Assembly: GCA_963676105.1 (NCBI GenBank)
Contig: OY781039.1
Span: 1,320,001-1,352,000, forward strand
Direction: 5' to 3'
DNA from: Erysipelotrichaceae bacterium
Lineage (GTDB): Bacteria; Bacillota_I; Bacilli_A; Erysipelotrichales; Erysipelotrichaceae
Length of the DNA stretch: 32,000 bases
In this document: positions 18,623-20,363 of the stretch, in pieces
How the letters are laid out: every line of letters begins with the position of its first letter
Position numbering within the stretch: the stretch's first letter is position 1
Notes under the pieces: generated by a model
Told to the model about the DNA's origin: nothing
Databases searched by the model: none
The model's input: the letters and a program-made list of their open reading frames with translations, nothing else
Program-made: the position numbers and the translations under genes

Positions 18623-18706
18623 TAAGGAATATTACAATTTGATGAATATAAATAAGATGTAGGCAAGTATCATCGAGTGTCCTCCAATTTTAGATTGGGG
18701 GTGATT
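18623..18706 (+). promoter_or_regulatory. Promoter and 5' leader of toxin module B, severed from its ORF by the IS
   Basis: TAAGGA-N18-TATAAA followed by tgtaggcaagt...cctccaat...gattgggggtgatt. This is colinear with the module A leader (7343-7446) up to the SD. Confidence 0.6.
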
Positions 18707-18819
18707 AACTATTAGAAATCAAGTGGAAAATTAAATTTAATTAAAAATTAATCAATTCATGACAAAAAGAAATCTAGAATATAGATTTTATTGAATTATT
18801 GATGATTCTTCGAGAATGA

Positions 18820-19995
18820 CTACCTCATCTTAGAAAAATCAAAGTCAATGTTTTTGGTCTCTAAAGTGTAAATGATTCTTACGAGTTTCTTGGCGACATG
18901 AGACAAAGCTACTCGATGAGGTTTACCTTCTAACCGTTTCTTTTTATAGAAATCATAAAGTATTGGATTATGAATTAATGAAGATTCAGCGACATTCATT
19001 AAAGCTTGTCTTAAATAAGAAGATCCGTGTTTAACCATATGACCCTTAAACTCTGAGTCACCTGATTGGTGACGAGAAGGTTCTAAACCCGCAAAAGCGA
19101 GAACTTGATCAGGGTTATTAAAGCGATTGATGACTCCAATCTCAGAATAAATACAAGCTGCTGAATATAGTCCAATCCCAGGGATGGATTGAATATGAGA
19201 ACCTGATTGATTAAACTCAATTTTAATCAACTTATCGATTTCGTCCAATTGAATCTGAATGAAATCATGAAGTTTAAGAATGGACTCAAGCTGAGAACTC
19301 AAAATTGAATCATCACTTCCAATAGTTGATTGTGCCAGTTCCTTAAGTTGAGTAAACCTGGCATACGACAAGGTGCGCCGTAGAATCGATGTCATCTTCT
19401 TGTATGAATCAATATTCATGCGAGCCATCTTAGACGGAGTTGTGTAGTTTTTGAGAAGATACATACAGGTCTTGGATTTAAGAGAGTTATTAAAAAATGG
19501 CTTAAATTCAGGGAATATGAGATCTAACTTATTAGTCATCTGAGTTAACTGAAGTGATCTTAACTTGATGAGTGCATCTCTATGTCGGCTTAATGATTTC
19601 AAATTTCTGATGTGATAAGATTTCGGTGGATAGGGTTTGAAATCAACGGTTGAAAGATACAAAGCAATGAGCTGTGCATCGACTTTATCGGTTTTGGTTC
19701 TTCTAAGGGTAGTAGCTGTAGAGAACCGTCTAATGAGGATAGGATTAAATTCCATATAGGAGTACCCAATCTCTTCCAAATAGATTTTGAGATTCATTCC
19801 GTAATGACCCGTTGCCTCAAGTCCTATCCGTAATGATTGAGACGAATCGAGGTCACATAGAATCTCGTTTAAAAAAGAAAAACCCGACCGGTCATTAGAG
19901 AAGGAGAAAGATTCTCGAATGACTTCACCATCATGGTTCATGATGAAACAGTCGTGTTTATATTTGGCAATATCAATGCCAACCAAAAATGTCAT
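18820..19995 (-). CDS. IS110-family transposase/recombinase
   Basis: N-terminal FLVGIDIAKYKHD (DEDD/RuvC-like). The C-terminal region (IPGIGLYSAACIYSEIG...AGLEPSRHQSG) is typical of the Transposase_20 domain. Confidence 0.9.
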   Translation of the reverse strand: MTFLVGIDIAKYKHDCFIMNHDGEVIRESFSFSNDRSGFSFLNEILCDLDSSQSLRIGLEATGHYGMNLKIYLEEIGYSYMEFNPILIRRFSTATTLRRTKTDKVDAQLIALYLSTVDFKPYPPKSYHIRNLKSLSRHRDALIKLRSLQLTQMTNKLDLIFPEFKPFFNNSLKSKTCMYLLKNYTTPSKMARMNIDSYKKMTSILRRTLSYARFTQLKELAQSTIGSDDSILSSQLESILKLHDFIQIQLDEIDKLIKIEFNQSGSHIQSIPGIGLYSAACIYSEIGVINRFNNPDQVLAFAGLEPSRHQSGDSEFKGHMVKHGSSYLRQALMNVAESSLIHNPILYDFYKKKRLEGKPHRVALSHVAKKLVRIIYTLETKNIDFDFSKMR

Positions 19996-20273
19996 ATTGA
20001 CACCTCAACTTTCTGCACTGATTGTTTATTACCACTAAATGTTCAATCGATGTATACACGCTAATTATCAAACGTCACAGCGTTAATCAACTCATTAACA
20101 TTTCAAAAGAACTGTGGTAGGTATCACCCCCAAACAGTCAAAGCTGTATTTATGAAGTACAAATCCACAGTGCAACTTAAGCATATCGTATTGGCCTAAC
20201 GATATCCTTAAAAATAAATTAGGCTAGGAAAGGATATTATCGATTTACTAACCTAAATTGATAATACGTGATT
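19996..20273 (-). ncRNA. Non-coding 5' end of the IS; candidate bridge (seek) RNA
   Basis: 278 nt with no ORF lie upstream of the recombinase, the position where IS110-group elements encode their guide RNA. There is a nested stem / internal-loop structure at 20111-20171. One loop strand (20123-20133) is an 11/11 match to the target flank at 18695-18705. Confidence 0.5.
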
Positions 20274-20276
20274 CTT

Positions 20277-20363
20277 ATGGAAATACTCATTCAAGTAATG
20301 ATATTAATCATATCAATCGCGGATCTAATCGCTTTTATCTTAGTTAATAAGAAAAAACATTAA
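20277..20363 (+). CDS. 28-aa hydrophobic peptide MEILIQVMILIISIADLIAFILVNKKKH, type I toxin-like (module B, separated from its promoter/SD by the IS)
   Basis: Intact ORF, paralogous to module A. The sequence upstream is now the IS end (cgtgattcttATG), so the native SD is 1.57 kb away. Confidence 0.6.
   Translation: MEILIQVMILIISIADLIAFILVNKKKH

What the first reader, a model, noticed from the sequence alone, without database searches (positions are those of the whole stretch)
18623..20363. IS110-family element inserted precisely at a toxin ribosome-binding site, with a bridge-RNA-like loop matching the target
**Seen in the sequence: the insertion**
- Module B is split. Its promoter, leader and SD end at ...gattgggggtgatt (18706). 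The intact 28-codon ORF resumes at 20277.
- The 1.57-kb insert is bounded by direct GTGATT copies. Deleting it restores the SD-to-ATG spacing seen in module A.

**Seen in the sequence: the candidate guide RNA**
- The 278-nt non-coding stretch upstream of the recombinase contains an outer stem ACTGTGG/CCACAGT (20111-20117 and 20165-20171) and an inner hairpin ACAG-tcaaag-CTGT (20134-20147).
- This leaves an internal loop with two single-stranded arms.
- One arm (20123-20133, atcacccccaa) is the exact reverse complement of the 11 nt to the left of the crossover (18695-18705, ttgggggtgat).
- The other arm (20148-20160, atttatgaagtac) resembles the right flank (cttatggaaatac) more weakly, sharing TTATG plus scattered matches.
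- In the RNA, the two arms would pair with opposite DNA strands on opposite sides of the crossover.

**Established knowledge.** IS110-group recombinases use a guide (bridge) RNA encoded in the non-coding end 5' of the recombinase. Its target-binding loop has exactly this two-armed layout.

**Inference**
- This IS is programmed to hit the conserved SD region of the toxin family, and here it silences a toxin.
- Modules A and F (ttggaggtgat and ctggaggtgat) differ from the guide by only one or two nucleotides, so they are potential further targets.
Basis: partly seen in the sequence, partly recalled or inferred. Interest (0 to 1): 0.7.

Follow-up and report, generated by a model that had tools for sequence, protein, structure and literature searches.

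The report
RNA-guided IS110 element in a toxin's ribosome-binding site
A 1.57-kb IS110-family mobile element with its own guide ("bridge") RNA has inserted between the ribosome-binding site and the start codon of a small toxin-like gene. This is a clear but ordinary example of a known kind, because this whole clade of elements homes to ribosome-binding sites in general rather than to toxins.

Summary
A 1,567-bp IS110-group element on the minus strand (transposase 18820-19995) splits toxin-like module B between its Shine-Dalgarno (SD) sequence and its ATG. Removing it restores colinearity and the SD-ATG spacing of module A.

The 11-nt match (18695-18705 against 20123-20133) is real. It falls in the 3' arm of a conserved internal loop of an RNA encoded upstream of the transposase.

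About 60 relatives (40-96% transposase identity) support the bridge-RNA reading:
- The stems show compensatory changes.
- The 3' arm covaries with the right flank: core CW plus 5 nt, plus a 2-3-nt handshake to the element's right end.
- The 5' arm covaries more weakly with the left flank.
- A second loop covaries with the element's own ends.
- A covariance model built only from distant relatives hits 20096-20175(-) at 71.9 bits.

It is a bridge RNA, but it is not toxin-specific. Relatives sit antisense between the SD and ATG of many unrelated genes, as IS900 and IS901 are known to do. The left-half match here is mediocre (5 of 9 in register). The GGAGG paralogues would mismatch right-flank position 3, which is Watson-Crick paired in 44 of 46 natural sites.

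This is a new member of a known kind, of modest interest.

The parts
18623..18701 (+). 5' part of toxin-like module B: promoter-like region, leader and SD GGGGG, now cut off from its ORF
   Evidence: Aligns colinearly with the region upstream of module A.
18697..18701 (-). Right target half (RT positions 5-1, CCCCC on the element strand; this is the toxin's SD read antisense)
   Evidence: Complementary to the RNA's GGGGG at 20127-20131. RT positions 1-5 covary with the guide in 46 loci.
18702..18703 (-). Right copy of the crossover core CA (TG on the + strand)
   Evidence: The dinucleotide shared by both junctions in the relatives is CA or CT in the readable junctions; a distant subclade appears to use TT or TA. 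The third repeated base differs between the junctions in L011, L012 and L017.
18704..20270 (-). The inserted IS110-group element, 1,567 bp counting one core copy. It has no terminal inverted repeats
   Evidence: Termini are conserved in relatives...ATAGTTA[AG]T|CW at the right end and CW|CGTAT[AT]ATC... at the left. No terminal inverted repeat was found.
18704..18819 (-). Right non-coding end (116 bp), with a -35-like TTGATT at 18717-18722 and the left donor half ...AGTTAAT at its tip
18820..19995 (-). Transposase/recombinase gene, 391 aa, full length. Motifs GID(6), LEATG(59), TDKVDA(102) and HQSGDS(309) are present
   Evidence: Pfam PF01548 and PF02371. NCBIfam NF033542 at 230 bits against a cut-off of 140. 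PDB IS621 (8wt6) E 6e-19 and ISCro4 (9t56) E 3e-20. Motif positions.
19996..20268 (-). Left non-coding end (273 bp), with a -10-like TATTAT at 20261-20266 and a 5' hairpin at 20221-20254
   Evidence: Joining the ends as a circle gives TTGATT-17 nt-TATTAT. This arrangement is conserved in 52 of 61 relatives.
20015..20173 (-). Bridge RNA candidate, from closing stem GCAC (20170-20173) to GUGC (20015-20018)
   Evidence: The closing stem has compensatory changes.
20113..20169 (-). Target-binding loop with its outer stem UGUGG (20165-20169) / CCACA (20113-20117) and inner hairpin CAG (20144-20146) / CUG (20135-20137)
   Evidence: The four tested helices together (17 pairs: these two stems, the closing stem and the inner stem of the second loop) are 95% paired, 10 pairs have changes on both sides, and 0 of 500 shuffles reach this. 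A covariance model built from distant relatives hits 20096-20175(-) at 71.9 bits, E 1e-14.
20147..20157 (-). Left target guide CUUCAUAAA (20149-20157) plus UA (20147-20148) at the core position
   Evidence: The family register test peaks with UA aligned to the core (z about 5). L074 is a perfect example. In the window the match is only 5 of 9.
20123..20131 (-). Right target guide GGGGG (20127-20131), core complement UG (20125-20126) and handshake guide AU (20123-20124)
20057..20092 (-). Donor-binding loop: left donor guide AGUUGAU (20086-20092), inner stem AACG (20081-20084) / CGUU (20071-20074), right donor guide UUGAUAAU (20064-20071) ... CGUG (20057-20060)
   Evidence: The left donor guide covaries with the element's right end: 190 of 232 against 169.7 +/- 2.8 when permuted. 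All 4 inner-stem pairs have compensatory changes. The right donor guide is the reverse complement of CACG...ATTATCAA at the left end (sequence). The outer stem is only weakly supported.
20269..20270 (-). Left copy of the crossover core CA
   Evidence: As for 18702-18703.
20271..20279 (-). Left target half CATAAGAAT on the element strand (SD-ATG spacer plus the toxin's ATG at 20277-20279)
20277..20363 (+). Intact 28-codon hydrophobic ORF of module B (MEILIQVMILIISIADLIAFILVNKKKH), now without its promoter and SD
   Evidence: Paralogues are shown.

Best explanation
**What it is.** This is an intact IS110-group insertion sequence of 1,567 bp. It carries a DEDD/Tnp recombinase gene and, in its left non-coding end, a bridge RNA of about 160 nt.

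**How the RNA is organised.** The RNA has two internal loops.
[quoted passage not shown] It covers 5 nt plus the CA core, then 2 nt of the element's own right end after strand exchange (the 'handshake').
- The second loop recognises the element's own joined ends in the same way.

**What happened here.** Recombination at the CA core placed the element antisense to a small toxin-like gene, between its GGGGG Shine-Dalgarno and its ATG. The ORF is now cut off from its promoter and SD by 1.57 kb, so it is very probably silenced.

**How specific it is.** The whole clade is wired this way: the right guide looks like an SD and the left guide contains CAU. Its members therefore home to translation-initiation regions of many genes. 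Each member is tuned by a few nucleotides. Right-half recognition is strict and left-half recognition is loose. The toxin site is a perfect right-half match and a mediocre left-half match, not a dedicated toxin target.

**Shown here:** family membership, anatomy, covariation and the insertion-site pattern.

**Inferred:** that the RNA is made and bound, that the core is the cleavage site, and that the toxin is silenced.
For: - **Recombinase.** It matches both Pfam domains, passes the NCBIfam 'IS110 family RNA-guided transposase' cut-off, and is homologous to the solved IS621 and ISCro4 recombinases.
- **Empty site.** The reconstructed empty site is colinear with module A.
- **The 11-mer.** It is unique to the right flank and the left end.
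- **Right guide.** In 46 dereplicated relatives the 3' arm is complementary to right-flank positions 1-5 in 44, 46, 44, 35 and 24 cases. Permuted pairings give 34, 37, 30, 17 and 11. The total is 224 of 322 against 157 +/- 5.8. The core is complementary in 46 of 46. The handshake is complementary to the last two bases of the right end in 43 and 45 of 46.
- **Natural reprogramming.** A 96%-identical element has guide UGAGG and flank CA|CCTCA.
- **A perfect case.** L074 shows perfect left and right guide matches in the same register.
- **Left guide.** It covaries with the left flank: best local match 5.89 against 4.92 +/- 0.16, with the register peak at z about 5.
- **Stems.** 95% paired, 10 of 17 pairs compensatory, 0 of 500 shuffles reach this.
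- **Second loop.** It covaries with the element's right end.
- **Circle junction.** Joining the ends builds TTGATT-17-TATTAT, conserved in 52 of 61 loci.
- **Covariance model.** A model built from relatives of 64% identity or less finds only 20096-20175(-), at 71.9 bits.
- **Targets of relatives.** They are the SD-ATG regions of diverse genes, as for IS900 (CATGNNNNNNTCTCCTT; PMC8141618) and IS901 (PMC2942039).
Against: - There is no expression or binding data for the RNA, and its ends are not mapped.
- The single-sequence fold is no more stable than shuffles (z = -0.56).
- Rfam holds no matching family.
- The left guide matches this site at only 5 of 9 positions. The family's left-half register is blurred: offsets 1-3 are all enriched.
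- The outer stem of the second loop is only weakly supported on the alignment used.
- The UA at the core position of the left guide does not covary with CA versus CT cores.
- This target carries AT just left of the core, identical to the donor. The handshake guide could therefore pair with the target before exchange, a state that blocked IS621 in vitro.
- Only one copy of this exact element could be examined. The 1.96-Mb contig that carries the identical transposase could not be retrieved.
Confidence: 0.82

Rival explanations
1. The element is specifically programmed for the SD/start region of this toxin family. It acts as a toxin silencer, and paralogues A and F are its next targets.
For: - The right guide GGGGG differs from the GAGG of its 96%-identical relative. 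It matches module B's unusual GGGGG SD exactly.
- CACCCCC is rare in the window: four occurrences, two of them belonging to this system.
- Module B is the best match among the five paralogues. This comparison was made by hand from the sequences.
Against: - The left guide does not fit the toxin's start: 5 of 9 in register. The ideal site has a spacer 3 nt shorter and starts ATG AAG.
- Relatives disrupt diverse ordinary genes, and no other toxin-like ORF is among them.
- The GGAGG paralogues would need a G:T at right-flank position 3, which is Watson-Crick in 44 of 46 natural pairs with no wobble.
- Only one copy of the element lies in the window, and none sits at the other four modules.
Confidence: 0.1
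2. The GTGATT repeat is a 6-bp target-site duplication made by staggered cleavage. Target choice is made by the protein, and the RNA-flank match is incidental.
For: A perfect 6-bp direct repeat bounds the insert.
Against: - In relatives the bases shared by the two junctions shrink to the CW dinucleotide. In L011, L012 and L017 the left junction has CAC while the right has CAT or CAA. In L018 and L051 only CT(C) is shared.
- The other repeated bases belong to the conserved element ends (...TTAAT and C GTATT...).
- The guide and the flank covary far beyond permuted pairings, including between elements 96% identical.
Confidence: 0.03
3. The element is a decayed, immobile relic. The loop-flank match records only a past event, with no present function.
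For: - Only one copy is seen in the window.
- The exact protein was recorded on one contig only.
Against: - The ORF is full length and aligns end to end with the relatives.
- The catalytic-type motifs, both termini, both loops and the junction-promoter halves are all intact.
- The guide still matches the flank at 9 of the 9 informative positions.
Confidence: 0.1

Closest known systems
IS621 / ISCro4 bridge recombinase systems (IS110 group; Durrant et al. 2024, Hiraizumi et al. 2024)
   Same: - A DEDD (RuvC-like) plus Tnp-domain recombinase.
- The guide RNA is encoded in the long left end, upstream of the gene.
- Two internal loops. [quoted passage not shown]
- A 2-nt core, and handshake nucleotides after the right target guide.
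- A discontinuous right donor guide.
- A promoter assembled at the circle junction.
   Different: - Protein similarity is distant (E about 1e-19; one search aligns two stretches, residues 4-150 and 266-389).
- The core is CA or CT in the clade, against CT for IS621.
- The target is an SD-ATG region instead of REP-like sequences.
- The core position of both left guides is a fixed U(A) that does not track the core.
- The left-half match is loose and its register is variable.
- An extra closing stem joins the 5' end of the RNA to a site just upstream of the transposase SD.
IS900 / IS901 (Mycobacterium avium complex, IS110 family)
   Same: - Oriented insertion between the Shine-Dalgarno sequence and the start codon.
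- The IS900 target motif is CATG-N6-TCTCCTT (PMC8141618). The CT-core members of the present clade have the same layout: CAT - spacer - CT - CCTT.
   Different: - The hosts are Actinobacteria with high G+C.
- IS900 carries a long antisense ORF (hed); no such ORF is present here.
- No paper in the searchable library links these elements to a bridge RNA.
seekRNA-guided IS1111-group elements (Siddiquee et al. 2024)
   Same: The same recombinase family and RNA-guided target choice.
   Different: In IS1111-type elements the RNA lies downstream of the gene, there are subterminal inverted repeats, and the order of the two guides is reversed. Here the RNA is upstream, the left end (273 bp) is longer than the right (116 bp), and there are no such repeats.

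Membership tests
IS110 family, IS110 group (insertion sequence) | DEDD (RuvC-like) N-terminal domain plus a C-terminal Tnp domain with a conserved Ser | tested here: met
   PF01548 at 1e-36 and PF02371 at 3e-22. NF033542 at 230 bits against a cut-off of 140. IS621 and ISCro4 structures at E about 1e-19. Motifs GID, LEATG, TDKVDA and HQSGDS are present.
IS110 family, IS110 group (insertion sequence) | No terminal inverted repeats, and no target-site duplication beyond the shared core | tested here: met
   No terminal inverted repeat was found. The 6-bp repeat reduces to the CW core across relatives.
IS110 family, IS110 group (insertion sequence) | Long left non-coding end upstream of the gene and a short right end (the opposite holds in IS1111) | tested here: met
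   Left end 273 bp, right end 116 bp.
IS110 family, IS110 group (insertion sequence) | A circular intermediate whose junction forms a promoter | tested here: inconclusive
   In silico, joining the ends gives TTGATT-17-TATTAT, conserved in 52 of 61 loci. No circle was observed. The 1,563-bp circular Monoglobus record has 5 extra nt at its junction.
Bridge RNA (IS110-group guide RNA) | Target-binding loop whose 3' arm is complementary to the top strand of core plus right target, and covaries with it | tested here: met
   Window: 9 contiguous informative pairs (11 in all). Family. Element 96% identical.
Bridge RNA (IS110-group guide RNA) | Target-binding loop whose 5' arm is identical to the top strand of left target plus core | tested here: inconclusive
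   The family-level signal is significant, and the match is perfect in L074. The window's site matches at only 5 of 9, and the core position is a fixed UA.
Bridge RNA (IS110-group guide RNA) | Second (donor-binding) loop whose arms match the element's own right and left ends | tested here: met
   The left donor guide covaries with the right end. The right donor guide UUGAUAAU...CGUG is the reverse complement of CACG...ATTATCAA. The inner stem is fully compensatory. The outer stem is weak.
Bridge RNA (IS110-group guide RNA) | Handshake nucleotides 3' of the right target guide that pair with the donor's left half | tested here: met
   Complementary to the last two bases of the right end in 43 and 45 of 46 loci. 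The concept is from PMC11208158.
Bridge RNA (IS110-group guide RNA) | Match to a curated covariance model of bridge RNAs | not testable with these tools
   No Rfam 15 family matches, at the gathering threshold or at E up to 10. A model built here from distant relatives hits at 71.9 bits.
Bridge RNA (IS110-group guide RNA) | The RNA is transcribed, bound by the recombinase and required for recombination | not testable with these tools
   Needs RNA sequencing, co-purification and recombination assays.
Type I toxin-antitoxin module (the disrupted target) | A small hydrophobic toxin ORF with an overlapping antisense RNA antitoxin | not tested
   Five paralogous 28-codon hydrophobic ORFs have conserved flanks. 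None hits Pfam or NCBIfam. The antisense RNA and toxicity were not examined.

The most novel reading that the evidence does not exclude
A large clade of IS110 elements in Bacillota and Mollicutes-like bacteria has a target loop hard-wired to translation-initiation regions. I found no description of this clade in the searchable library.
- The right guide mimics a Shine-Dalgarno sequence and is read strictly (core plus 5 nt).
- The left guide carries the start-codon complement and tolerates mismatches and shifts in register.
- Every member therefore lands antisense between the SD and the ATG of some gene.

This would give the RNA-level explanation for the IS900/IS901 target rule from the 1990s. 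It would also point to a natural bridge system with a relaxed left-half requirement.

Because IS110 excision can restore the target, such insertions could act as reversible off-switches for genes, here a toxin. That last step is inference.
Probability: 0.55. Interest if true: 0.5.

Novelty: new member of a known kind. Interest (0 to 1): 0.35.

Why it matters
- It is a clean natural example of bridge-RNA targeting in which the guide and the target can be read directly from one window. About 60 relatives show natural reprogramming, including a 96%-identical element with a changed guide and a correspondingly changed flank.
- It links the newer bridge-RNA mechanism to the old observation that IS900-type elements insert between the SD and the start codon.
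- For engineering bridge recombinases, the apparent asymmetry in this clade is a testable lead: a strict right half against a loose, register-tolerant left half, and tolerance of a target that matches the handshake guide.
- For the host, the event is one more IS knockout, here of a small toxin-like gene.

Tried and rejected
**Dead ends**
- Rfam, at the gathering threshold and at E up to 10, found no family in the left end.
- The exact-protein look-up of the window's transposase gave no retrievable contig, although an identical protein is recorded on a 1.96-Mb contig. Other copies in the source genome could therefore not be examined.
- The single-sequence fold is not more stable than shuffles, so it was not used as evidence.
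- Promoter and terminator scans of the region are at chance level.
- The toxin ORFs have no Pfam or NCBIfam family.

**Readings I dropped**
- I first read the core as AT and the left donor guide as GTTAAT-GA. Alignment with relatives replaced these with core CA and left donor guide AGUUGAU.
- I tried to fix a single register for the left guide. Offsets 1-3 are all enriched, so only the peak (offset 2) is reported.
- The outer stem of the donor loop was tested on the MAFFT alignment and was inconclusive.

**Other searches**
- The plasmid collection gave only distant relatives, 41% identity or less.
- A 1,563-bp 'circular plasmid' of Monoglobus is a relative, but it has 5 extra nt at its junction and a non-SD guide. 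It was not used as evidence for circles.
- Literature searches found no paper linking bridge RNAs to IS900 or to Shine-Dalgarno targeting.
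Full report
**1.

The window carries a 391-aa ORF on the minus strand (18820-19995). It matches both Pfam domains of IS110-family transposases. It passes the NCBIfam equivalog 'IS110 family RNA-guided transposase' at 230 bits against a cut-off of 140. It is a distant homologue of the solved IS621 and ISCro4 recombinases, with E about 1e-19 to 1e-20.

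GTGATT occurs at 18701-18706 and at 20268-20273. Removing 18707-20273 gives a module B that aligns colinearly with module A at 7340-7640. The SD-to-ATG spacing is then the same in both. The 28-codon ORF at 20277-20363 is intact.

The 11-mer TTGGGGGTGAT occurs exactly twice in 32 kb: at 18695-18705(+) and, as its complement, at 20123-20133. No shuffle gave a match. It is a perfect 11-nt inverted pair between the right flank and the left non-coding end.

**2. Relatives**

A scan of species-representative genomes with the transposase returned 66 loci with 40-85% identity. They come mostly from Erysipelotrichaceae, Bacilli, Clostridia and Acholeplasma-like metagenome-assembled genomes. A protein search found elements 96% identical (P0002), and their contigs could be read. 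One metagenome scan added five more loci.

All of them share three features:
- The same element termini: the right end is ...ATAGTTA[AG]T and the left end begins CGTAT[AT]ATC.
- The same non-coding RNA scaffold upstream of the gene.
- Two invariant blocks in that scaffold, UGUGGAUUUG and ACCACAG.

Comparing left and right junctions shows that the shared sequence reduces to a dinucleotide, CA or CT in the readable junctions. The third repeated base differs between the two junctions in L011, L012 and L017. A distant subclade (L005, L007, L009, L060) appears to use TT or TA instead. The 6-bp repeat in the window is therefore the 2-nt core plus four bases that this target happens to share with the element's ends. 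It is not a target-site duplication.

**3. The RNA**

I tested four helices on 62 sequences: a closing stem, the outer and inner stems of the first loop, and the inner stem of the second loop. They are 95% paired. Ten of 17 pairs have changes on both sides, and 0 of 500 shuffles reach any of the measures. Sliding the partners collapses the pairing to 14-45%.

- The outer stem of the second loop is only weakly supported on this alignment.
- The single-sequence fold is no better than shuffles.
- Rfam has no matching family.
- A covariance model built only from relatives with 64% transposase identity or less, excluding the window and its close kin, finds one significant hit in the window: 20096-20175(-), 71.9 bits, E about 1e-14.

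**4. Guide-target pairing on the right half**

The published geometry is as follows. [quoted passage not shown] Both include the core (PMC11208160). Two 'handshake' nucleotides after the right guide pair with the donor's left half after strand exchange (PMC11208158).

In element orientation the window reads ...CATAAGAAT|CA|CGTATTATC at the left junction and ...AGTTAAT|CA|CCCCCAATC at the right junction. The 3' arm of the first loop is UUGGGGG-UG-AU. Its parts are:
- GGGGG, which pairs with right-flank positions 1-5.
- UG, which pairs with the core.
- AU, which pairs with the last two bases of the element's right end.

Across 46 dereplicated loci, the 3' arm is complementary to right-flank positions 1-5 in 44, 46, 44, 35 and 24 cases. 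Permuted pairings give 34, 37, 30, 17 and 11. The total is 224 of 322, against 157 +/- 5.8 with a maximum of 179. Positions 6-10 are at chance. The core is paired in 46 of 46. The handshake bases are paired in 43 and 45 of 46.

So 9 of the 11 matched bases are informative, and the two distal ones are probably fortuitous.

Specific co-changes between guide and flank include:
- GGAGAUGAC with GTCATCTCC
- GGAUGUGAC with GTCACATC
- AGAAAGGC with GCCTTTC
- UUGGUGAC with GTCACCAA

The 96%-identical element has UGAGG-UG-AU and the flank AAT|CA|CCTCA. This is natural reprogramming over a very short evolutionary distance.

**5. The left half**

The 5' arm covaries with the left flank, but more weakly. 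The mean best local match is 5.89, against 4.92 +/- 0.16 for permuted pairs.

A register test peaks when the UA just before the CAG stem is aligned with the core (z about 5). The neighbouring offsets are also enriched. L074 shows the register cleanly: the RNA has UUCAUGAG-UA and the DNA has TTCATGAG-CA, together with a perfect right half.

In the window, the in-register match is 5 of 9. The family mean is 4.9 in register and 6.4 at the best offset. The guide's ideal site, read in the sense of the target gene, would be GGGGG-TG-TTTATGAAG. The actual site is GGGGG-TG-ATTCTTATGGAA, with a spacer 3 nt longer.

**6. The donor loop and the circle junction**

- The 5' arm of the second loop (AGUUGAU) matches the element's right end AGTTAAT, with one G:T. 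It covaries with that end across the family: 190 of 232, against 169.7 +/- 2.8. Examples are AGCUAGU, AGUUUGU, AGUUGGU, AGUUUAU and AGUAAGU, each matching its own element's end.
- The 3' arm carries CGUG, the complement of CA+CG, and UUGAUAAU, the complement of ATTATCAA in the left end. The two are separated by a small bulge. This resembles the discontinuous right donor guide described for IS621.
- Joining the ends as a circle creates TTGATT-17 nt-TATTAT, and this is conserved in 52 of 61 loci. In the integrated copy the -35 position is occupied by TGAGTA.

**7. What the clade targets**

In nearly every locus the right flank is the reverse complement of a Shine-Dalgarno sequence (CACCTC or CTCCTT). 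The left flank carries CAT a few bases from the core.

Reading away from the element, an ORF starts 0-9 nt from the core in most loci. These ORFs are mostly 100-700 aa and unrelated to each other. Their N-termini look like DivIVA/GpsB, D-Ala-D-Ala ligase, guanylate kinase, MiaB, transketolase and TetR, by my reading of the N-termini; no family search was run on them. The window's 28-aa ORF is the only toxin-like one; the few other very short or missing ORFs coincide with doubtful left-end calls.

This is the behaviour long known for other IS110-family members:
- The IS900 target motif is CATGNNNNNNTCTCCTT (PMC8141618).
- IS900 and IS901 are cited as inserting between the Shine-Dalgarno sequence and the start codon (PMC2942039).

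I found no paper in the searchable library that connects this to bridge RNAs.

**8. Verdict on the interpretation**

The parts 'IS110 element', 'bridge-RNA-like loop' and 'the match is the guide' are supported.

The claim 'programmed to hit the toxin family' is not supported:
- The clade homes to RBSs in general.
- The left guide does not fit the toxin's start.
- The GGAGG paralogues would place a G:T at right-flank position 3. That position is Watson-Crick in 44 of 46 natural pairs, with no wobble observed.

What remains true is that this element's unusual GGGGG guide fits module B's unusual GGGGG SD exactly. Among the five paralogues in the window, B is the best site. The ORF is now 1.57 kb from its promoter and SD, so silencing is a reasonable inference. 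It was not tested.

**9. Limits**

- There is no expression data.
- Only one copy of this exact element was seen, and the source genome could not be fetched.
- Many relatives come from metagenome bins and short contigs.
- Some boundary calls in distant relatives were wrong and were excluded by eye.
- The target here has AT just left of the core, the same as the donor. The handshake guide could therefore pair with the target before exchange, a state that blocked IS621 in vitro. Either this clade differs from IS621 or such sites are merely inefficient.

**10. Classification**

This is a new member of a known kind: an IS110-group element with a bridge RNA and IS900-like RBS targeting. The interest is modest. 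The main value is a tidy natural dataset of guide-target reprogramming and a hint of relaxed left-half recognition.

Noticed in passing
window 7447-7533(+), 20277-20363(+), 26925-26839(-), 29680-29594(-), 30038-29952(-): There are five paralogous 28-codon hydrophobic ORFs (M[NSDE][DTI]FIQ[VI]MIL...K[KR][KH][HK]). Each has a conserved leader and SD. Each has a terminator-like AAAAACACTCT...AGAGTGTTTT just downstream and a convergent TATAAT-like box beyond it. They look like a type I toxin-antitoxin family. None hits Pfam or NCBIfam.
   Followed up: partly
window 28913-29020(-): A SAM riboswitch (RF00162, 51.4 bits), the only Rfam hit in the window at the gathering threshold.
   Followed up: no
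window 20271-20272 and 18704-18705, against the RNA at 20123-20124: The target's two bases left of the core (AT) are identical to the donor's. The handshake guide AU can therefore pair with the target before strand exchange. In IS621 this 'pre-handshake' configuration locked the complex and blocked recombination (PMC11208158), yet the insertion happened here.
   Followed up: partly
L011, L022, L047, L007 and other loci: left flanks: Relatives sit between the SD and the ATG of genes that look essential or housekeeping, with ddl-, miaB-, gmk- and transketolase-like N-termini by my reading, no family search run. This raises the question of whether the outward-facing left end supplies translation or transcription signals. 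The junction keeps a GTGAT remnant of the extended SD.
   Followed up: no
L027, both junctions: The left junction carries core CT and the right junction carries core CA. This is what would be expected if the donor and target cores differed and the heteroduplex was resolved differently at the two ends.
   Followed up: no
L075 (NZ_OY725734.1, whole record, 1563 bp): A record deposited as a circular 1,563-bp 'plasmid' of Monoglobus pectinilyticus is just an IS110 relative (38% identity). Its end-to-end junction reads TAGTTAGT-CT-CAC-CT-CGTATAAT, 5 nt more than a clean circle. Its right guide is not SD-like.
   Followed up: partly
window 20221-20254(-) and the equivalent position in relatives: A 5' hairpin in the left end has a conserved CCUUUC in its loop in the closest relatives aligned over this stretch. 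This sequence is complementary to an SD-like GAAAGG. Its role is unknown.
   Followed up: no
L068, L069 (Logan contigs of about 1.49 kb): Two independent assemblies of the 96%-identical element break at the same internal point of the left end and just after the right target half. This is probably a repeat-induced assembly break.
   Followed up: no
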